64,000 bases of DNA from Branchiostoma lanceolatum (taxonomy: Eukaryota). A program made the position numbers and the translations under genes. The notes under the pieces are model-generated. The model was not told the origin of the DNA and did no database searches. It was given only the letters and a program-made list of their open reading frames with translations. How positions within the stretch are numbered: position 1 is the stretch's first letter; every line of letters begins with the position of its first letter. Shown piece by piece: positions 23,690 to 50,799 of the stretch. Where the stretch lies: positions 9,044,596 to 9,108,595 of the forward strand of contig NC_089740.1 in NCBI RefSeq assembly GCF_035083965.1, in the 5' to 3' direction.

Positions 23690-24100
23690 TGCTATTGTTT
23701 CCCGTATGTGCCATGGATGGCTTGCCCACTGGGCTGCTGATTGTGACCATCTCCCTGGGCCTTGGCGTGATGTTCCTGCTGTAGCTGTAGGAGGTTTTCA
23801 TGACTCCAGCTGCAGTAGAATGGCGAAAAAATGTTTCTGTTCTTTGTAGGTCTGCTGATCGTGACTATCTCCCTTACCCGATGTTCCTGCTGCAGCTGTA
23901 GGATGTTTCAGCAGCAGTACACTGACGTAAACTGTTTTTGTTTCCCGAAGTTGCCATGGCTGGTTTGGCCATCGGGCTGCTGATCGTGACCATCGCCCTG
24001 GGTCTCGGTGTGATGTTCCTGCTGCAACTGTAGTATGAGTCTATGACTACAGCATCAGCACAATGATGTAAACTGTTTTTGCTTCCCGTAGGTGCCATGG
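23690..24100 (+). repeat. Tandem array of 4 copies (about 110-130 bp each) of the TM-encoding terminal exon plus flanking intron. Copies 1-3 are truncated or disabled (start about 23700, 23850, 23945). Copy 4 is the functional exon 16.
   Basis: Copy 1 encodes AMDGLPTGLLIVTISLGLGVMFLL* but its acceptor is mutated (cccgtaTgtgcc versus cccgtaGgtgcc). Copy 2 has an internal deletion. Copy 3 encodes VAMAGLAIGLLIVTIALGLGVMFLLQL* with a weak aag acceptor. All three terminate at ctgtag directly after the TM segment. Confidence 0.75.
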
Positions 24101-24312
24101 CTGGCTTAGCCATCGGTCTGCTGATCCTGACCATCGCCCTAGGTCTCGGCGTGATGTTCATGCTGCAGCGCGGGTTCGACGGTGCCGCCAAGGCTCCCGC
24201 CGTGGCGCGCAGCGGGGGAGGAAACACCGCGCCTACCGAGGAGAAGGTGGCAGGCGGGCTGCCCACACAGATGGAAACCATCGAGGTTCCCACAGATGAT
24301 ACCAGTGCATAG
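24092..24312 (+). CDS. Novel membrane protein exon 16 (terminal): (G)AMAGLAIGLLILTIALGLGVMFMLQRGFDGAAKAPAVARSGGGNTAPTEEKVAGGLPTQMETIEVPTDDTSA*
   Basis: Acceptor cccgtag|. A 23-residue hydrophobic TM helix is followed by a basic stop-transfer RG and a ~50-aa cytoplasmic tail. TAG stop at 24310-24312. The full spliced CDS is 2118 nt (705 aa), with all 15 junctions canonical and in frame. Confidence 0.7.
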
Positions 24313-26807: not shown

Positions 26808-27212
26808 TCACTTTTCCGTGTCAGAATATGTGGAGTCGTCATCTTCCTTTTCCATATTTGACAGCCCATACATAAGTCCATTGGATGCCGCCTGGTCGTC
26901 ATAGCAACCCTTCTCCACCTCTTCGCACAGCGCATGCGTGCTATCAGTCTGCTCTTCACTCATTGGTCCTTGCGTGAGATTGTTGTCATGACAACTGTCT
27001 GTAGAGCCGTTCACGATCTGTAGAAGACCTGGGTCTCTTCTCAGACCCTCGATAAACTCCCGCAGAATGAGAAACCCGTCTTGGTCGCTGTCAAGACGTT
27101 CGAAAATCTTCTCTGTCACGTCCTGGATGTGGTCCTCTCGTTCCCGACGTTCCTGGGCCTGCAGCAGTTCGTCGATGTTGGTTTCTTGAGGGAGTCGGAT
27201 GTCCTGAAGAAA
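26808..27212 (-). CDS. NCS-family EF-hand protein terminal exon: FLQDIRLPQETNIDELLQAQERREREDHIQDVTEKIFERLDSDQDGFLILREFIEGLRRDPGLLQIVNG..., plus a ~65-aa acidic Ser/Asp/Glu-rich tail, then stop
   Basis: Minus strand. Acceptor tcttttttattttgcag|TTTCTT. The 4th EF loop DSDQDGFLILRE and the segment REFIEGLRRDPGLLQ resemble NCS-1 QEFQEGSKADPSIVQ. TGA stop at 26808-26810. Confidence 0.7.
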   Translation of the reverse strand, partial: FLQDIRLPQETNIDELLQAQERREREDHIQDVTEKIFERLDSDQDGFLILREFIEGLRRDPGLLQIVNGSTDSCHDNNLTQGPMSEEQTDSTHALCEEVEKGCYDDQAASNGLMYGLSNMEKEDDDSTYSDTEK

Positions 27213-30939: not shown

Positions 30940-31313
30940 GTAGGAAAGGCCAACATATCCTCCTGATGCAAGATAGACTCGTACTCTTACGGGCTAAAGC
31001 TAAAAAAGCTTGGATGCCAGGCTATGTACAAAGCTTTCATCATTTCAATAAAAGTGATTGTAGCACTCGTTTGATTACACCAAAAGTTAGGACCAAAATC
31101 ATATTTTTATTGAGCTATTTTATTGACAATCCTCACTATACAAACGCTTTATTTTATCTGGAAAGGGTGACGACGCACTGGTAAATTGTGTTCTAGATGT
31201 ATTTGATTGCTTATCTTTGCAATGTATAACGGCACCGTGGAAAAGGGTAGTACTCCTATAGTGTCATAGTGTTTAAGCTTGAAAGCTAACGTATTGATTG
31301 CTTTGTTCTCCAG

Positions 31314-31960
31314 ATTGCTCGGCCATTTTCCATTGGTTGAACGGGAAGGCCATAAGCGGCGTGTACAACATCCGCCCGGCGGGGGCAAACCGAACCGTCC
31401 CCGCCTACTGTCGCATGGCAGGTGGTGAAGGCTGGACCGTGCTACAGCGGCGTCAGGACGGCTCCGTCGACTTCTTCCGCACCTGGGCCGAGTACAAGCG
31501 CGCCTTCGGCGACCCGGCCACGGAGTTCTGGCTCGGCAACGACAACATCCACCTCCTGACCAACCAGGCTGGGTACAAGCTGAGGGTGGACTTGGAGACG
31601 TGTGACGGGAAAGCGACCTACGCCCAGTACAGGATCTTCTCCATCGCAGACGAAGCCTCGGCCTACAAGATGACGGAGGCGGCCGGCTACAGCGGAACCG
31701 CCGGCAACGCTTTCTTGCGACTCAAGGGTAATCCCTTTATCACAAGGGACAGGGACAGCAAGACCAAGATAGCCAGTAAGTTTAGAACCGCGGGGTGGCT
31801 ATACAGGTGGACTGTAGGCAACCTGAACGGCGAGTACTACACTCCGCAAACCGCGCCGACCAAAACCAAAGGGTTATCCGGAATGAGGTGGTACACGAAC
31901 AGATTTAAGTTCCCCTTAGTGAAGTTTGTTGAGATGAGGATCGCCCCTAACAATACATAA
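31314..31960 (+). CDS. FReD protein A exon 3: fibrinogen C-terminal globular domain (DCSAIFHWLNGKAISGVYNIRPAG...GWTVLQRRQDGSVDFFRTWAEYKRAFGDPATEFWLGNDNIHLLT...VEMRIAPNNT*)
   Basis: Acceptor tctccag| in phase 1. Classic FReD motifs are present: DCxxI start, GGGWTVxQRRxDGSxxF, EFWLGNDxIxxLT, NLNG and a C-terminal EM(R/K)I(A/R)P. The spliced protein is 313 aa. TAA stop at 31958-31960. Confidence 0.85.
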
Positions 31961-34359: not shown

Positions 34360-34765
34360 GTAGGAAAGGCCAACATATCCTCCTGATTTAAGATAAACTC
34401 GTACCCAGCCTTCTTACGGGCTGTAGCTAAAAAAATGTCTGAATGCCAGGCTATGTACAAAGCTTTCATCATTTCAATAAAAGTGATTATAGCACTCGTT
34501 CGATTACGCATCTAGCATAGATGCAATTTCACCAAAAGTTAGGATCAAAATCATATTTTCATTGAGCTATATTATTGACAAGCCTCACTATACAAACGCT
34601 TTATTTTATCTGAAAAGGGTGACGACGCACTGGTAAATTGTGGTCTAGACGTATTTGATTGCTTATCTTTGCAATGTATAACGGCACCGTGGAAAAGAGT
34701 AGTACTCCTATAGTGTCATAGTGTTTAAGCTTAAAAGCTAACGTATTGATTGCTTTTTTCTCCAG

Positions 34766-35424
34766 ATTGCTCGGCCATTTTCCAGTGGTTGAACGGGAAG
34801 GCCATAAGCGGCGTGTACAACATCCGCCCGGCGGGGGCAAACCGAACCGTCCCCGCCTACTGTCGCATGGCAGGTGGTGAAGGCTGGACCGTGCTCCAGC
34901 GGCGTCAGGACGGCTCCGTCGACTTCTTCCGCACCTGGGCCGAGTACAAGCGCGGCTTCGGCGACCCGACCACGGAGTTCTGGCTCGGCAACGACAACAT
35001 CCACCTGCTGACCAACCAGGCTGAGTACAAGCTGAGGGTGGACTTGGAGACGTTTGACGGGAAAGCGACCTACGCCCAGTACAAGATCTTCTCCATCGCA
35101 GACGAAGCCTCGGCCTACAAGATGACGGAGGCGGCCGGCTACAGCGGAACCGCCGGCACCGCTTTCTTGCGACTCAAGGGTAAGCCCTTCATCACAAGGG
35201 ACAGGGACAGCAAGACCAAGATAGCCAGTAAGTTTAGAACCGCGGGGTGGCTATACACCTCGTATTCCGGCAACCTGAACGGTGTGTACCACACCCCGCA
35301 AACCGCGCCGACCAAAACCACCATGATCCTCGATGCTATCAGGTGGTCCCGAAGGAAAACATACGGATCTAAGTTCCGCTTACTGAAGTTTGTTGAGATG
35401 AGGATCGCACCTAACGTTACATAG
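34766..35424 (+). CDS. FReD protein B exon 3: fibrinogen C-terminal globular domain, with a divergent C-terminal about 50 aa (…AGWLYTSYSGNLNGVYHTPQTAPTKTTMILDAIRWSRRKTYGSKFRLLKFVEMRIAPNVT*)
   Basis: Acceptor tctccag|. The frame matches the ORF track (34750..35424). The spliced protein is 313 aa. Confidence 0.85.
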
Positions 35425-37154: not shown

Positions 37155-37346
37155 CGTGAGCACGTTGATGAGTTCCTTCTTGCTGACCGTCCCGTCGCTG
37201 TTCAGGTCGAAGATACAGAATGCCCACTTGAGTCTCTCCATGGGGGTTCCCCGCAGCATGGCGGACATGCCGCACAGAAACTCCCGGAAATCCACGCAGC
37301 CGCTCGCGTCGCGGTCAAACGTGTGGAAGATTCGTCTGGCCAGGAT
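37155..37346 (-). CDS. NCS-family EF-hand protein exon: ILARRIFHTFDRDASGCVDFREFLCGMSAMLRGTPMERLKWAFCIFDLNSDGTVSKKELINVLT (EF-hands 2 and 3)
   Basis: Minus strand. Acceptor attttacag| and donor ACG|gtgggt. Two canonical EF loops (DRDASGCVDFRE, DLNSDGTVSKKE) are spaced as in NCS proteins. Phase 0 at both ends, continuous with the flanking exons. Confidence 0.75.
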
Positions 37347-39130: not shown

Positions 39131-39450
39131 ATAAGATAGAATTGACAAGTCCAGAATAGAATTGAATGAGATAGAATAGAATAGATTGAAATGTATTGGA
39201 ATGAAATATAATGGAATGCAATGGAATGAGCTGGAATGAACTGGAATGAAATAAAATAGAAGAGGATGGAATGAAATAGAATAGAATAGAATAGAATAGA
39301 ATGGAATAGAATGGAATGGAATGGAATAGAATTGAATTGAATGAAGCGGAATGGAATGGAACGGAATAGAATAAAAATGGACTAGAACAGAATAGAGTGA
39401 AATAGAATAGAATAGAATAGAATACAGTAGATGTAGAATAGAATAGTTCA
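39131..39450. repeat. Pentameric satellite (GAATG/GAATA/ATAGA)n, a GGAAT-type simple satellite of about 320 bp
   Basis: Direct reading shows gaatagaatagaatggaatggaatgga... It lies in the 5.9-kb intron of the NCS gene. Confidence 0.9.
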
Positions 39451-42354: not shown

Positions 42355-43226
42355 GGCCCAAATCTGGTCTCAGGGTAGGAAATAATATTCTAGGGTTTCT
42401 AACCTTCACAACCTTGCGGCAAGCAACAGTATAGGTGACTGGGTCCAATAGAAGAGCGGCTGCGGAAACGTTGGCTAAGTCAGAAATTCTAGTTTGCGCA
42501 AACAGAAGTCAATTCAACGAGTTCTCTTTGAGCAACCTTCAATTCCTCAACGAAGTCGTGTCACCCACTGTTTGATCTCAGTGTTGCCGTGCCCATCGAT
42601 TTATCCATCTTGTTTGCGGGGGTAGCGACCGTTGGAAGCTAACAAGCATGGATTCGGGCAAGTGATCAAAGTGGTTCCACTTCTGATGATTTAGCCTAAC
42701 GAAGACAGTACAGCTGCTGACCAAACGCTTGTAAAGCAAGTTAACGTAAAACGAACCACATAACTCTGCGGCAAAATCTTACTTCTCTATGCTATTATTT
42801 CGGTATTGGCGAAATCGAGGTTACTGCAGTGGTGGAAGTCATTAAGCCAGGAAGAAAGTAGTGGCGGCTACAAGACATCAAATTAAAGAACACCATTCAC
42901 CAGATAAATACCCTGCTTTTATTTCAGTGTGACCGCAATCGAAGTGACTACATACAGTATTGGAATCTTGCTAGGCGCTCATGAAGACATTGAGTCGATG
43001 CAACGTATCGAATAAAATAACCTCTAGTTTGCGTTTAATTAAGAAATCCCATTCTCCAACAAAACAACCGGTACTCATCGCTCTTATTTCAGTAGGACCG
43101 CAATCGAAATGACTACAGTATTGGAATCCACTAGGCCCTCATGAAGACATCGATCGGATGTAAGGAATGAAATTAAGGAAACTCTAATTTGCATTTAATG
43201 AAATTCTCCAAAATCTCGGTACTCAC

Positions 43227-43376
43227 TGCTTTAATCTTGGCGTCGCCGTGCTCAAAGTGGTTACAGTAGAAGCTGACGAACTGACCCTCTGACAGTTGCC
43301 CGTCCGGACAGTCCGTCAGGAACAGTCGGTACCACTGTTTCACCTCCGCAACTGTGAAGTGAGTCACCCTCGCCAG
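43227..43376 (-). CDS. NCS-family (recoverin/frequenin/KChIP-like) EF-hand protein, internal exon: LARVTHFTVAEVKQWYRLFLTDCPDGQLSEGQFVSFYCNHFEHGDAKIKA (N-terminal pseudo-EF-hand region)
   Basis: Minus strand. Acceptor ctgcag|CTGGCG and donor GCA|gtgagt. Matches the NCS-1 pattern [44 protein letters not shown] as recalled. Confidence 0.75.
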
Positions 43377-44460
43377 CTGCAGAGGAAGATTAAGGCAGAA
43401 ACAGTAAATGAACAGTAAATGTCCGGACAGTCCGTCAGGAACAGTCTGTACCACTGTTTCACTTCCGCCACTGTGAAGTGAGTCACCCTCGCCAGCTGCA
43501 GAGGAAGATTAAAGCAGAAACAGTAAATAACCAGTAAATGTCCGGACAGTCCGTCAGGAACAGTCTGTACCACTGTTTCACCTCCGCTACTGTGAAGTGA
43601 GTCACCCTCGCCAACTGCAGAGGTTAAAGCAGAAACAGTAAATAACCAGTAAATGTCCGGACAGTCCGTCAGGAACAGTCTGTACCACTGTTTCACCTCC
43701 GCTACTGTGAAGTAAGTCACCCTCGCCAACTGCAGAGGTTAAAGCAGAAACAGTAAATAGACAGTAAATGTCCGGACAGTCCGTCAGGAACAGTCTGTAC
43801 CACTGTTTCACTTCCGCCACTGTGAAGTGAGTCACCCTCGCCAGCTGCAGAGGAAGATTAAAGCAGAAACAGTAAATAACCAGTAAATGTCCGGACAGTC
43901 CGTCAGGAACAGTCGGTACCACTGTTTCACCTCCGCTACTGTGAAGTGAGTCACCCTCGCCAGCTGCAGAGGTTAAAGTAGAAACAGTAAATAATCAGTA
44001 AATGTCCGGACAGTCCGTCAGGAACAGTCTGTACCACTGTTTCACCTCCGCTACTGTGAAGTGAGTCACCCTCGCCAGCTGCAGAGGAAGATTAAAGCAG
44101 AAACAGTAAATAACCAGTAAATGTCCGGACAGTCCGTCAGGAACAGTCGGTACCACTGTTTCACCTCCGCTACTGTGAAGTGAGTCACCCTCGCCAGCTG
44201 CAGAGGTTAAAGTAGAAACAGTAAATAACCAGTAAATGTCCGGACAGTCCGTCAGGAACAGTCTGTACCACTGTTTCACCTCCGCTACTGTGAAGTGAGT
44301 CACCCTCGCCAGCTGCAGAGGTTAAAGTAGAAACAGTAAATAATCAGTAAATGTCCGGACAGTCCGTCAGGAACAGTCGGTACCACTGTTTCACCTCCGC
44401 CACTGTGAAGTGAGTCACCCTCGCCAACTGCAGAGGAAGGTTAAAGCAGAAACAGTAAAT
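43377..44460 (-). repeat. Satellite of 9 tandem units (114-120 bp). Each unit is a truncated copy of the NCS exon (75 nt encoding LARVTHFTVAEVKQWYRLFLTDCPD) plus its ctgcag acceptor and about 40 bp of upstream intron.
   Basis: The motif gtccggacag recurs at 43421, 43541, 43655, 43769, 43889, 44003, 44123, 44237 and 44351. Two unit subtypes exist (...gcagaggaagattaaag... and ...gcagaggttaaag...). The array abuts the genuine exon, which is the last and only complete copy. Confidence 0.9.
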
Positions 44461-49619: not shown

Positions 49620-50520
49620 ACTACTCTGAGTTGTTTTCAAGATTTTGTGCCGTATCTTCTGTAGCTCAGAAGACGGTGGTGCCCGGTACGCGTGCTCAGA
49701 GTGCAAATTTCACCATACCTGAGTCAGCATTAACTTTGACCTAACATCTAAGTTACAAAAGCCTCATTATCACCAACTGTAAACAAACACACTTATCACA
49801 GCACTGTTTATTCTTATGCAGTTGACACGGTATTTTCAGCTGTAGAAGTCGGCGCTGCCCCATACTATACAACCCTAAACGTCAAAACCTCTTCCTATTC
49901 CGCCTCGACTGTTAAAAACCGCTCTGACAGTTCTATGAGTTCTCTGAGCGGTTTTGTGCTTGTTGACGTGATATCTAAAGTCACAGAAGACGGCGCTACC
50001 CCATACTAGGAGTTATTCAAGAAAGATGTGACTTAAAACGTAGAGAATTTCCTCTTGTTTCACCTTACCGGTGTTAGCATCCGTTTTGACTGTTCTCTGA
50101 ATCGGTTTTTGCGTTTGTTGCCGTGATTTCTTAAATCATAGAAGGCGGTGCGCATCAAACGTTAAACGTTAGAATTTCGTCCGTCTCACTTGTGCCAGCA
50201 TCAGTTTTGACTGATCTATGTGGCACTGCGATTTTTTGTGCTGAGGTGGTATGTATCTAGACTAAAGAAGGTGGTGCTATCCCATACATTGAGTAGCAAG
50301 AAAAAATGTGACTCAAGGCGTTAGAAACTTTTGTTGTTACATCTTACCTGTGCAAGCTTCCATGTTGACTGTTGTCTGAGCGGATTTTGTGTTTGTTGAC
50401 GTGATCTTAAATCTAAGAATGCGGTGCTATCCCTTTTTAGCGTACGAATCGACTCTAATCGTTAAAAAAAAAATTCCCGCCTTACCTGTGTCAGCATCCT
50501 CTTCGATTGTTCTCTGAGCG
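49620..50520. repeat. Tandem repeat, about 150-bp unit x 6 (core ..ttgactgttctctgagcggttttgtgcttgttgacgtgatatctaaagtcacagaagacggcgctaccccatac..)
   Basis: The core aga(a/g)g(a/g)cggtgct..cccatac recurs at about 49660, 49838, 49975, 50128, 50262 and 50412. Confidence 0.75.
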
Positions 50521-50799
50521 GCCTTTTCCCGTTATAGGTCCTCCTCAGTTGTGTCTTACACGTCTGCATGCGGCTTCCAAAACAGCCCATGCCTTCCGCC
50601 TCACCGCTGCTCCGTCTCTTATCTAGGATCCCCGTCACTCTGCTGTGCAGTCCGCCCATCCCGTGCCACTTCCTCCTCCTCCTGTGATATCACCGCACTC
50701 ACGTTAACGTCTCAGCTTCCCGATGTTCTCACCTCGCCGCCTTCAGGCGTTCATTTGCTCTGATTGCTCCGCAAATTCGCTTCCGGCACCCTCTTCCTG

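What the first reader, a model, noticed from the sequence alone, without database searches (positions are those of the whole stretch)
43227..44460. Satellite array made of truncated exon copies, each with an intact splice acceptor, just upstream of the genuine NCS exon
The 114-120-bp satellite has 9 units. Each unit is a tandem duplicate of the first 75 nt of the NCS-gene exon, encoding LARVTHFTVAEVKQWYRLFLTDCPD, plus the ctgcag acceptor and about 40 bp of intron. The genuine, complete exon at 43227-43376 is the most 3' copy. Every unit keeps the reading frame and a usable AG but lacks the downstream part of the exon and its GT donor. This gives nine potential decoy or cryptic acceptors in the intron preceding a conserved exon. 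The two unit subtypes (with or without an aagatt insertion) alternate, suggesting growth by unequal crossing-over of a dimer. I am not aware of an exon-derived satellite described at an NCS locus.
Basis: seen in the sequence. Interest (0 to 1): 0.75.

Follow-up and report, generated by a model that had tools for sequence, protein, structure and literature searches.

The report
Amphioxus "mirage" minisatellite copying an exon boundary
Nine truncated copies of an intron/exon boundary sit in front of a real exon of an amphioxus calcium-sensor gene; this is a genuine, copy-number-variable repeat, but it belongs to an already described amphioxus class called "mirages" and probably has no function of its own.

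Summary
Window 43302-44460 (gene on the minus strand) holds 9 truncated units plus the genuine exon 2 (43376-43227). Each unit has 34-38 nt of intron, ctgcag, and the first 75 nt of the exon (LARVTHFTVAEVKQWYRLFLTDCPD).

Corrections: units are 115 or 119 nt, the indel is 4 nt (TCTT), and the subtypes do not strictly alternate.

The window is Branchiostoma lanceolatum. The gene is its "neurocalcin homolog"/NCALD, and the array lies in the ~7 kb intron 1. A second B. lanceolatum assembly has the same array with the same 5' junction but only 3 full units. B. floridae has none. B. belcheri has one copy with different breakpoints.

[quoted passage not shown] The gene carries older mirage remnants at two further boundaries, and the neighbouring gene has one too.

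The copies keep their coding sequence (11 synonymous vs 2 nonsynonymous changes, P~1e-5). I attribute this to concerted evolution with the selected exon rather than to use of the copies.

All nine decoy acceptors would give premature stops if used. The array has broken the RefSeq gene model.

Verdict: new member of a known kind, modest interest.

The parts
43302..44460 (-). Whole tandem array (mirage minisatellite), including the first 75 nt of the genuine exon 2 as its terminal member
   Evidence: TRF period 115, 9.9 copies, 94% matches, score ~2000; unit alignment
44353..44460 (-). Unit U1 (outermost): 33 nt of intron with acceptor, then exon-like part 44427-44353. Long-type spacer with CCTT variant. 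Most divergent unit.
44238..44352 (-). Unit U2, 115 nt (short spacer); exon-like part 44312-44238
44123..44237 (-). Unit U3, 115 nt; exon-like part 44197-44123
44004..44122 (-). Unit U4, 119 nt (long spacer with TCTT); exon-like part 44078-44004
43889..44003 (-). Unit U5, 115 nt; exon-like part 43963-43889
43770..43888 (-). Unit U6, 119 nt; exon-like part 43844-43770; identical to U9
43655..43769 (-). Unit U7, 115 nt; exon-like part 43729-43655; carries the only nonsynonymous change in this haplotype (CAC->TAC, H->Y)
43540..43654 (-). Unit U8, 115 nt; exon-like part 43614-43540
43421..43539 (-). Unit U9, 119 nt; exon-like part 43495-43421. The RefSeq partial model XP_066270989.1 reads out of frame through this unit, starting at 43502.
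43227..43376 (-). Genuine exon 2 of the neurocalcin-homolog (NCALD-like) gene: 150 nt, phase 0-0, acceptor ctgcag at 43382-43377, donor GTGAGT from 43226
50486..50659 (-). Exon 1 coding part (MGGLHSR...SKRMLTQ), donor CAG|GTAAGG. Intron 1 (50485-43377) contains the array.
50066..50110 (-). Older mirage-type copy of the exon 1 3' end with a GTAAGG donor (KNRFREQSKRMLTPV), ~420 nt into intron 1
   Evidence: 76% identity over ~200 nt
42914..43199 (-). Two degenerate tandem copies (~165-nt period, 79% identity) of the exon 2 3' end plus donor region in intron 2. Peptide traces are YCSHFDCGPTEIRA (43120-43079; the HSP runs one codon further, to 43076) and CSHFDCGHTEIKA (42952-42914).
37155..37346 (-). 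Exon 3 (ILARRIFHTFDRD...INVLT)
26808..27212 (-). Exon 4 coding part including the stop codon
43226..43238 (.). Arm of a 13-nt inverted repeat (last 12 nt of exon 2 plus the G of the donor). It is complementary to the polypyrimidine region of long-type spacers at 43505-43517 (100%) and 43386-43398 (92%).
   Evidence: the stem appears in the predicted pre-mRNA fold, z = -3.6

Best explanation
The array is a "mirage": an unstable minisatellite created by tandem duplication of the intron 1/exon 2 boundary of the Branchiostoma lanceolatum neurocalcin-homolog (NCALD-like) gene.

Origin and turnover. A ~119-nt segment was duplicated: the last ~44 nt of the intron (with a candidate branch point by eye, polypyrimidine tract and AG) plus the first 75 nt of the exon. 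The copies have since expanded and contracted by unequal exchange or replication slippage. Copy number therefore differs between haplotypes (9 vs 3). Units are homogenised with one another and with the genuine exon, which is the terminal member of the array.

Function. The array most likely has none of its own.

Why it is tolerated (inferred). Only the last acceptor is followed 150 nt later by a real donor, so exon definition should favour it. Use of any upstream acceptor yields a transcript with a premature stop, which nonsense-mediated decay would remove.

Why the truncated copies still encode the right peptide (inferred). They are young, turn over quickly, and exchange sequence with an exon under strong purifying selection. 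They do not need to be translated for this to happen.

Shown: anatomy, host gene, copy-number polymorphism, independent or recurrent occurrence in the genus, the synonymous bias, and the consequences of decoy use. Inferred: the mechanism of origin, the acceptor choice, and the role of NMD.
For: Anatomy.

Host gene and species: 100% match to B. lanceolatum XP_066270989.1 and CAH1251874.1. NCS family by best PDB hits: neurocalcin delta 1bjf E=1e-35, then hippocalcin, NCS-1, KChIPs, recoverin.

Copy-number polymorphism: the second assembly, GCA_927797965.1, has the same 5' junction but 3 full units plus one internally deleted unit.

Concerted evolution involving the genuine exon: in that haplotype the adjacent unit is 119/119 identical to the genuine boundary and shares synonymous variants absent from the window. 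In the window, U6 = U9 and the edge units are the most divergent. Units within the window array are ~96% alike, while the two haplotypes' flanking intron is only 92-94.5% identical.

Not conserved: B. floridae has no copy. The two B. belcheri assemblies have one copy each, with different breakpoints (66 and 87 nt of exon) and microsatellite spacers.

The same phenomenon at other boundaries: exon 1 3' and exon 2 3' in the window; exon 3 3' and exon 4 5' in B. belcheri, with copy-number differences between assemblies; and the neighbouring gene.

Published class: mirages in Adh3, globins (BflGb6: 150-160-bp units made of the intron 3' end plus the exon 2 5' part, 6 vs 3 copies between haplotypes, concerted evolution, normal RT-PCR products), troponin C and PGBD5.

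Normal junction: the BraLan3 model and the B. belcheri and B. floridae RefSeq models all join ...MLTQ|LARV...CPDGQLSE with no extra sequence.

Decoy use: a premature stop in all 9 cases, at least 140 nt before the next junction.
Against: No RNA data were available, so acceptor choice is not shown. The full-length models are annotations, not reads.

The RefSeq model for this very assembly is partial and runs through unit 9. That could reflect transcripts that include a unit.

The synonymous bias is strong: 11:2 in B. lanceolatum, P~9e-6, and 10:0 at pS 0.47 for one B. belcheri copy. My back-of-envelope population-genetic argument says indirect selection through exchange works only if exchange is frequent, so direct constraint on the copies is not excluded.

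Units contain in-frame donor-like GTs about as strong as the genuine exon 2 donor under a rough PWM written from memory.
Confidence: 0.85

Rival explanations
1. Functional decoy-acceptor array. The nine near-identical 3' splice sites capture part of the splicing flux from exon 1. This produces stop-containing transcripts that are degraded, so array length tunes expression of the calcium-sensor gene (regulated unproductive splicing).
For: All ten acceptor modules are almost identical from about -40 to +75. Unit 9's acceptor with the genuine donor would define a 269-nt exon, a plausible size. Every decoy leads to a premature stop. The RefSeq partial model includes unit 9 sequence. The synonymous bias would fit exonic splicing-enhancer or coding constraint.
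Against: Copy number is 9 vs 3 between two B. lanceolatum haplotypes, 0 in B. floridae, and 1 with different breakpoints in B. belcheri. This is a polymorphic, non-conserved structure, as expected for neutral minisatellites. Published mirages give no aberrant mRNAs. Older mirage copies in the same gene have decayed.
Confidence: 0.07
2. The units are translated. Acceptor plus an internal in-frame donor (GAG|GTGAAA, 33 nt) makes LARVTHFTVAE cassette micro-exons, or some other isoform uses the copies. This would explain why they stay intact at the protein level.
For: In-frame donor-like sites score ~6 bits against 6.0 for the genuine exon 2 donor under a rough PWM. Synonymous bias is 11:2 and 10:0 in B. 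belcheri.
Against: The synonymous-only pattern covers the whole 75 nt, not just the first 33. The same GT sites exist in the genuine exon without being annotated as donors. No database protein carries such an insertion, except one ab initio B. belcheri model with a different duplication. Unit lengths (115/119) break the frame across units.
Confidence: 0.03
3. Assembly artefact. The array, or its length, is an error of repeat assembly.
For: Tandem repeats are prone to mis-assembly. Ebner et al. noted an aberrantly assembled mirage in the B. floridae draft. The 3 vs 9 difference could in part be a collapse in one assembly.
Against: The array is present at the same junction in two independent assemblies, with unit-specific variants and haplotype-specific synonymous changes. 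Units are distinguishable, differing by 0-10 positions. The array is only 1.2 kb, which is shorter than typical long reads (my inference; I did not establish which reads built this assembly).
Confidence: 0.02
4. Incipient intron gain or exon split (the Rogers/Ebner model). A unit's exon part becomes a new exon 2a and the intervening units become a new intron at ...CPD|G....
For: The model was proposed for globin mirages. Tandem duplication can create introns.
Against: There is no GT directly after CCGGAC in any unit, and no AG before GGGCAA in the genuine exon. At least two specific mutations would be needed. No species shows an intron at this position.
Confidence: 0.02

Closest known systems
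[quoted passage not shown] 2002; globin genes BflGb6/BflGb9, PMC3087553; troponin C and PGBD5, PMC3902484)
   Same: Same genus and same architecture. BflGb6 units consist of the 3' end of an intron plus the 5' part of exon 2. Both cases show a unit size of ~100-160 bp, copy number differing between haplotypes (6 vs 3 there, 9 vs 3 here), concerted evolution with divergent edge units, retained AG signals, and occurrence at both 5' and 3' exon boundaries.
   Different: A new host gene (an NCS-family neurocalcin homolog) with three boundaries affected in one gene. Here I also quantified a strong synonymous-only substitution pattern in the truncated copies and showed that the genuine exon takes part in the homogenisation. 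Normal splicing was shown by RT-PCR for the published cases but not here.
Classical minisatellites / VNTRs (e.g. human hypervariable minisatellites)
   Same: A single-locus tandem array of 10-100+ bp units. Length is polymorphic through unequal exchange or slippage, with internal variant-repeat structure.
   Different: The unit is derived from a functional exon boundary and carries a complete 3' splice-site module and an intact coding segment. The functional exon is the terminal repeat.
Tandem exon duplication / mutually exclusive exon clusters
   Same: Tandem copies of exon sequence with their own acceptors inside one gene.
   Different: The copies here are truncated (half an exon), lack the donor, and have unit lengths that are not multiples of 3. 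They cannot substitute for the exon.
Intron gain by segmental tandem duplication (Rogers model; Hellsten et al. 2011, PMC3265369)
   Same: Short intragenic tandem duplication that duplicates splice signals.
   Different: There, the duplication of an AGGT inside coding sequence creates a spliced intron. Here, the duplication spans an existing boundary and adds extra acceptors within an existing intron.

Membership tests
Amphioxus mirage minisatellites | Head-to-tail tandem repeats of minisatellite unit size | tested here: met
   TRF period 115, 9.9 copies; spacings of 115/119 nt
Amphioxus mirage minisatellites | The repeat unit spans an intron/exon boundary of a real gene | tested here: met
   Each unit is 34-38 nt of intron + ctgcag + the first 75 nt of exon 2. 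The exon is confirmed by 100% identity to the B. lanceolatum protein models and by orthologues.
Amphioxus mirage minisatellites | Occurs in a cephalochordate (Branchiostoma) genome | tested here: met
   The window encodes B. lanceolatum XP_066270989.1 / CAH1251874.1
Amphioxus mirage minisatellites | Length instability: copy number differs between haplotypes or individuals | tested here: met
   9 truncated units in the window vs 3 full + 1 partial in GCA_927797965.1, with the same 5' junction
Amphioxus mirage minisatellites | Concerted evolution within the cluster, with edge units escaping homogenisation | tested here: met
   U6 = U9 and U2/U3/U5 differ by 1-2, while U1 and the genuine copy are the most divergent. 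B3_U3 is identical to the genuine boundary in the other haplotype.
Amphioxus mirage minisatellites | Does not disturb regular splicing (a reported property of published cases) | not testable with these tools
   Annotation-level support only: full-length models join exon 1 directly to the genuine exon 2. No RNA reads were available, and the RefSeq model of this assembly is partial.
Neuronal calcium sensor (NCS) family (host gene) | Sequence similarity across the four-EF-hand NCS core | tested here: met
   Best solved relatives are neurocalcin delta 1bjf (E=1e-35, residues 55-240), hippocalcin, NCS-1, KChIPs and recoverin. Pfam EF-hand hits.
Neuronal calcium sensor (NCS) family (host gene) | N-terminal myristoylation-type MGxxxS start and a CPxG motif in the degenerate EF-1 | tested here: met
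   MGGLHS at the exon 1 start and CPDG in exon 2. That these motifs define the family is from my own knowledge. Myristoylation itself was not tested.
   The array is 1.16 kb. No other copy exists in the 64 kb window outside the array, and the unit derives from this locus's own exon.
Mutually exclusive / tandemly duplicated exons | Complete exon copies with both splice sites and a compatible length and phase | tested here: not met
   Copies stop after 75 of 150 nt and lack the GTGAGT donor. Unit lengths of 115/119 are not multiples of 3.
Conserved regulatory decoy / poison splice sites | Conservation of the element across related species | tested here: not met
   0 copies in B. floridae, 1 copy with other breakpoints in B. 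belcheri, and 3 vs 9 within B. lanceolatum

The most novel reading that the evidence does not exclude
The truncated exon copies are themselves under selection. The 11:2 (B. lanceolatum) and 10:0 (B. belcheri, pS ~0.47) synonymous:nonsynonymous patterns would then mean one of two things. Either mirage units are used, as decoy acceptors feeding regulated unproductive splicing or as in-frame cassettes. Or mirage arrays and their exon form one selected multi-copy family in which any unit can become the working exon half, so the array acts as a reservoir of exon variants. More broadly, exon boundaries in amphioxus could be genuine hot spots for tandem duplication. As counted, 11 of 23 boundaries of this gene across four loci lie in local duplications against ~20% of gene sequence, P~0.002. 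Some of those hits are weak low-identity HSPs, so the conservatively verified count is about 9 of 23, and detection bias is not excluded.
Probability: 0.08. Interest if true: 0.6.

Novelty: new member of a known kind. Interest (0 to 1): 0.3.

Why it matters
Practical value. The array breaks automated annotation. The RefSeq model of this gene is "partial", lacks exon 1 and begins with 42 residues of out-of-frame repeat. One B. belcheri model contains spurious in-frame duplications. Anyone using amphioxus NCS genes for chordate comparisons should use the 306-aa model.

Biological value. It adds a clean, two-haplotype example (9 vs 3 units) to the small list of described mirages. It shows three affected boundaries in one gene and another in the neighbouring gene, which supports the view that mirages are a general property of cephalochordate genomes.

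The synonymous-only divergence of the non-functional copies illustrates how selection on one terminal repeat can shape a whole array. It would be worth testing genome-wide. If the copies proved to be used in splicing, this would be a natural experiment in 3' splice-site competition with a variable number of identical sites.

Tried and rejected
(1) Excess synonymous diversity in the duplicated half of the genuine exon. Between the two B. belcheri assemblies pS is 0.33 there, but 0.21 and 0.17 in exons 1 and 3. In B. lanceolatum the two exon halves differ similarly by my own count from the printed sequences (4 vs 3 changes). Not significant, so dropped.

(2) Strict dimer or alternating structure. 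TRF periods 234 and 349 score only marginally better than 115. The unit order is L S S L S L S S L L.

(3) Transposon or dispersed repeat. No copies elsewhere in the window.

(4) Structured RNA. No Rfam match at E <= 0.1 on either strand.

(5) A gene on the opposite strand. No + strand ORF of 50 aa or more overlaps the array.

(6) The 13-nt inverted repeat as a conserved structure. It is absent from B. floridae and B. belcheri (my comparison by eye with the sequences), so I treat it as a curiosity.

(7) The boundary-enrichment test used permissive blastn scoring. Some hits, notably those at the exon 1 3' boundary, are long HSPs of only 59-69% identity. I report the enrichment as suggestive only.

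(8) Look-ups that failed or were uninformative. The original mirage paper PMC117041 is not held, so I relied on two papers that describe the class. The locus of XP_066270989.1 is not on record. NCBIfam was uninformative for a eukaryotic protein.

(9) Transcript evidence. The protein search returned only six annotated Branchiostoma proteins and nothing transcript-derived.
Full report
OBSERVATION

The region was read on both strands. Tandem Repeats Finder reports one array at 43302-44460 with period 115, 9.9 copies and 94% matches. Periods 234 and 349 score only slightly higher.

On the minus strand the motif ctgcag + [CT]TGGCGAGGGTGAC occurs exactly ten times, at spacings of 115,115,119,115,119,115,115,119,119 nt. 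The first nine copies carry 75 nt that translate to LARVTHFTVAEVKQWYRLFLTDCPD (unit 7 has H->Y) and then continue with ATTTACTG.... The tenth continues GGGCAACTG... to a GTGAGT donor. It is the complete 150-nt exon at 43376-43227.

Three details need correcting:
- Unit sizes are 115 and 119 nt.
- The subtype difference is a 4-nt TCTT indel.
- The long/short order is L S S L S L S S L L, not a regular alternation.

HOST GENE

A spliced model of exons 2-4 matched a Branchiostoma lanceolatum protein at 100% identity: "neurocalcin homolog, partial", RefSeq XP_066270989.1. It also found orthologues in B. belcheri and B. floridae.

The orthologues gave the sequence of exon 1, which lies at 50659-50486 with a CAG|GTAAGG donor. 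The array therefore sits at the 3' end of a ~7 kb intron 1.

A second B. lanceolatum record (CAH1251874.1, "NCALD", 306 aa) equals exon 1 + exons 2-4, joined ...MLTQ|LARV...CPDGQLSE....

The protein belongs to the NCS family. Its best solved relatives are neurocalcin delta (E=1e-35), hippocalcin, NCS-1, KChIPs and recoverin. It has EF-hand Pfam hits, an MGxxxS start and a CPDG motif.

The RefSeq partial model has no exon 1. Its first 42 residues are exactly the out-of-frame translation of window 43502-43377, i.e. repeat unit 9. The array has broken that gene model.

COMPARISON WITH OTHER HAPLOTYPES AND SPECIES

The locus of CAH1251874.1 in assembly GCA_927797965.1 has the same array with the same 5' junction (...ATATC|ATTTACTG...). 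It has only three full truncated units plus one internally deleted unit, all of the 119-nt type. This shows two things: the array is not an artefact of one assembly, and its copy number is polymorphic.

In that haplotype the unit next to the exon is 119/119 identical to the genuine boundary. It shares synonymous variants (GCT, GAA, CCA) that no unit in the window has. The genuine exon is therefore part of the homogenising family.

Flanking intron 1 is only 92-94.5% identical between the two haplotypes. Units within the window's array differ by 0-10 positions in ~117, and mostly by 1-6. Expansion and homogenisation are thus recent relative to the haplotype split.

B. floridae has a single exon 2 with no upstream copy. 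The two B. belcheri assemblies each have one truncated upstream copy with its own acceptor, but with different exon breakpoints (66 and 87 nt). In both, the copy is followed by (CT)n/(CACT)n microsatellites that form the polypyrimidine tract of the genuine acceptor. The structure at this boundary is therefore recurrent or rapidly remodelled, not conserved.

THE SAME PHENOMENON ELSEWHERE

In the window:
- The 3' end of exon 2 plus its donor region is present as two degenerate tandem copies in intron 2: ~165-nt period, 79% identity, peptide traces YCSHFDCGPTEIRA and CSHFDCGHTEIKA.
- The 3' end of exon 1 with a GTAAGG donor recurs ~420 nt into intron 1 at 76% identity.

A DNA-level self-comparison found that local direct duplications cover ~20% of the gene's length in four loci but include 11 of 23 exon boundaries (binomial P~0.002). 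Several of those hits are weak, the two B. belcheri loci are not independent, and conserved exon sequence is easier to detect. I treat this as suggestive only.

The neighbouring gene on the + strand has a 141-nt tandem duplication of an acceptor plus the start of a transmembrane exon at 23850-24190.

WHAT IS KNOWN

A literature search confirmed a lead from memory. [quoted passage not shown] 2002, cited in PMC3087553).

They were later found in amphioxus globin genes. BflGb6 has 150-160-bp units made of the intron 3' end plus the 5' part of exon 2. It shows 6 vs 3 units in two haplotypes, concerted evolution with divergent edge units, and normal RT-PCR products. Mirages were also found in troponin C and PGBD5 (PMC3902484).

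The present array meets every structural feature of that class that I could test (see membership table). I found no report of a mirage in an NCS gene. It is therefore a new member of a known kind.

CODING INTEGRITY OF THE COPIES

Among the ten copies in the window, the 75-nt exon part shows six substitution events: five synonymous and one nonsynonymous (binomial P=0.004).

Per-site event rates are 0.018 at nonsynonymous sites, 0.27 at synonymous sites and 0.16 in the intron-derived part. Fisher's test for nonsynonymous sites against the other two combined gives P=0.002.

Pooling both haplotypes (14 copies) gives 11 synonymous and 2 nonsynonymous events (P~9e-6). Both nonsynonymous changes are singletons in truncated units.

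In B. belcheri, one upstream copy differs from its genuine exon at 10 synonymous and 0 nonsynonymous sites, with pS 0.47. The older mirage remnants, by contrast, have decayed at the protein level.

My preferred reading is inference, not demonstration. The genuine exon is the terminal repeat and exchanges sequence with the units. Variants in the array are therefore largely those that passed selection in the exon, and damaged units are lost or overwritten.

Rough population-genetic reasoning says indirect selection of this kind needs frequent exchange. That is plausible for a minisatellite in a species with Ne ~1.5 million and ~3% heterozygosity (PMC13577491), but it is not shown. Direct constraint on the copies is not excluded.

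LIKELY CONSEQUENCES FOR SPLICING (INFERRED)

All ten 3' splice-site modules are nearly identical from about -40 to +75.

If exon 1 were joined to any decoy acceptor and the sequence up to the genuine donor were retained, the reading frame would hit a stop after 27-121 codons. That stop is always at least 140 nt upstream of the next exon junction. By the usual rule (own knowledge), such transcripts are NMD targets.

Only the last acceptor is followed by a donor at a normal exon distance of 150 nt. Unit 9 would give a 269-nt exon, and the others 388-1201 nt.

Units contain in-frame donor-like GTs (AGG|GTGACT at 9 nt, GAG|GTGAAA at 33 nt). Under a rough PWM written from memory these score about as well as the genuine exon 2 donor. 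Cassette inclusion is conceivable but unsupported.

A 13-nt inverted repeat pairs the polypyrimidine region of long-type spacers with the last 12 nt of exon 2 plus the donor G. It appears in the predicted pre-mRNA fold, z = -3.6. It is not present in the other species, so its significance is unknown.

NEGATIVE CHECKS

- No Rfam family matches.
- No + strand ORF of 50 aa or more overlaps the array.
- No other copy of the unit exists in the window.

VERDICT

It is, however, an instance of the known amphioxus "mirage" minisatellites rather than something new. A function as decoy acceptors is neither shown nor favoured by the comparative data.

Confidence in the mirage / neutral-VNTR explanation is 0.85. 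Interest is 0.3, and novelty is "new member of a known kind".

The most novel reading still open, at about 8%, is that the copies are directly selected or used in splicing. Junction-resolved long RNA reads and population genotyping would settle it.

Noticed in passing
window 23850-24190 (+ strand): A second mirage-type structure in the neighbouring gene. The neighbour is annotated as LolA_2nd_metazoa/DUF7959 in the orthologous loci. The 141-nt tandem unit is made of an intron end + acceptor + the start of a transmembrane-segment exon (AMAGLAIGLLI[VL]TIALGLGVMF). It is present as one partial copy, one truncated copy ending in a stop, and the genuine exon. TRF: period 141, 1.8 copies, 88% matches.
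   Followed up: partly
window 43226-43238 vs 43505-43517 and 43386-43398: A 13-nt inverted repeat. The last 12 nt of exon 2 plus the donor G are complementary to the polypyrimidine region just upstream of long-type acceptors (100% and 92%). The predicted pre-mRNA fold uses this stem to loop out the whole exon (MFE -82.7 kcal/mol, z = -3.6). It is not seen in B. floridae or B. belcheri, so it may be chance or a trace of the rearrangement that created the unit.
   Followed up: partly
window 43377-43502 (-): The RefSeq protein XP_066270989.1 ("neurocalcin homolog, partial") begins with 42 residues that are an out-of-frame translation of repeat unit 9, and it lacks exon 1 (50659-50486). The 306-aa GenBank model CAH1251874.1 from the other assembly is the correct full-length product.
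   Followed up: yes
window 31298-31960 and 34750-35424 (+ strand): Two tandem, highly similar ORFs (220 and 224 aa) lie on the opposite strand inside intron 3 of the NCS gene. I call them fibrinogen C-terminal-domain genes because Fibrinogen_C genes are annotated at the equivalent positions in the BraLan3 and B. floridae loci. I did not scan these ORFs themselves. They look like a nested, tandemly duplicated gene pair.
   Followed up: no
window 50066-50110 (-) and 42914-43199 (-): Older, decayed mirage-type copies of the exon 1 3' end (with a GTAAGG donor) and of the exon 2 3' end plus donor region. Three of the six internal exon boundaries of this gene are therefore duplicated in B. lanceolatum.
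   Followed up: yes
L002 29380-29906 and L003 28775-29152 (B. belcheri); L002 ~23020, L003 22019-22188: B. belcheri has tandem copies of the 5' part of exon 4 (3 extra copies in one assembly, 2 in the other; period ~189) and of the 3' end of exon 3 (1 vs 2 copies). The ab initio model Bbelb_286010 (P0002) incorporates some of these as spurious in-frame duplications.
   Followed up: partly
L001 19823-20269 (B. floridae); L002 16300-16410, L003 14230-14450 (B. belcheri): Pyrimidine-rich microsatellites sit at or just upstream of the exon 2 acceptor: (CTTC)~110 in B. floridae and (CT)n/(CACT)n in B. belcheri. The 4-nt TCTT indel in the B. lanceolatum spacer lies in the same kind of tract. These may be related to the instability of this boundary.
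   Followed up: no
protein P0006 (B. belcheri Bbelb_252190, paralogous NCS gene): The model of the paralogue contains a tandem repeat of ~38 residues (MSALLRGTTAQRLRWAFNMYDLDRNGSL[S/R]REELLNVLK). This suggests another partial-exon duplication in a related gene.
   Followed up: no
window 39153-39446: An (AGAAT)n-based 35-nt-period repeat of ~290 bp in intron 2. There are also several 120-175-bp two- to three-copy tandem duplications elsewhere in the window (25826, 50811, 56825, 60551). Short tandem duplications are very common in this genome.
   Followed up: no
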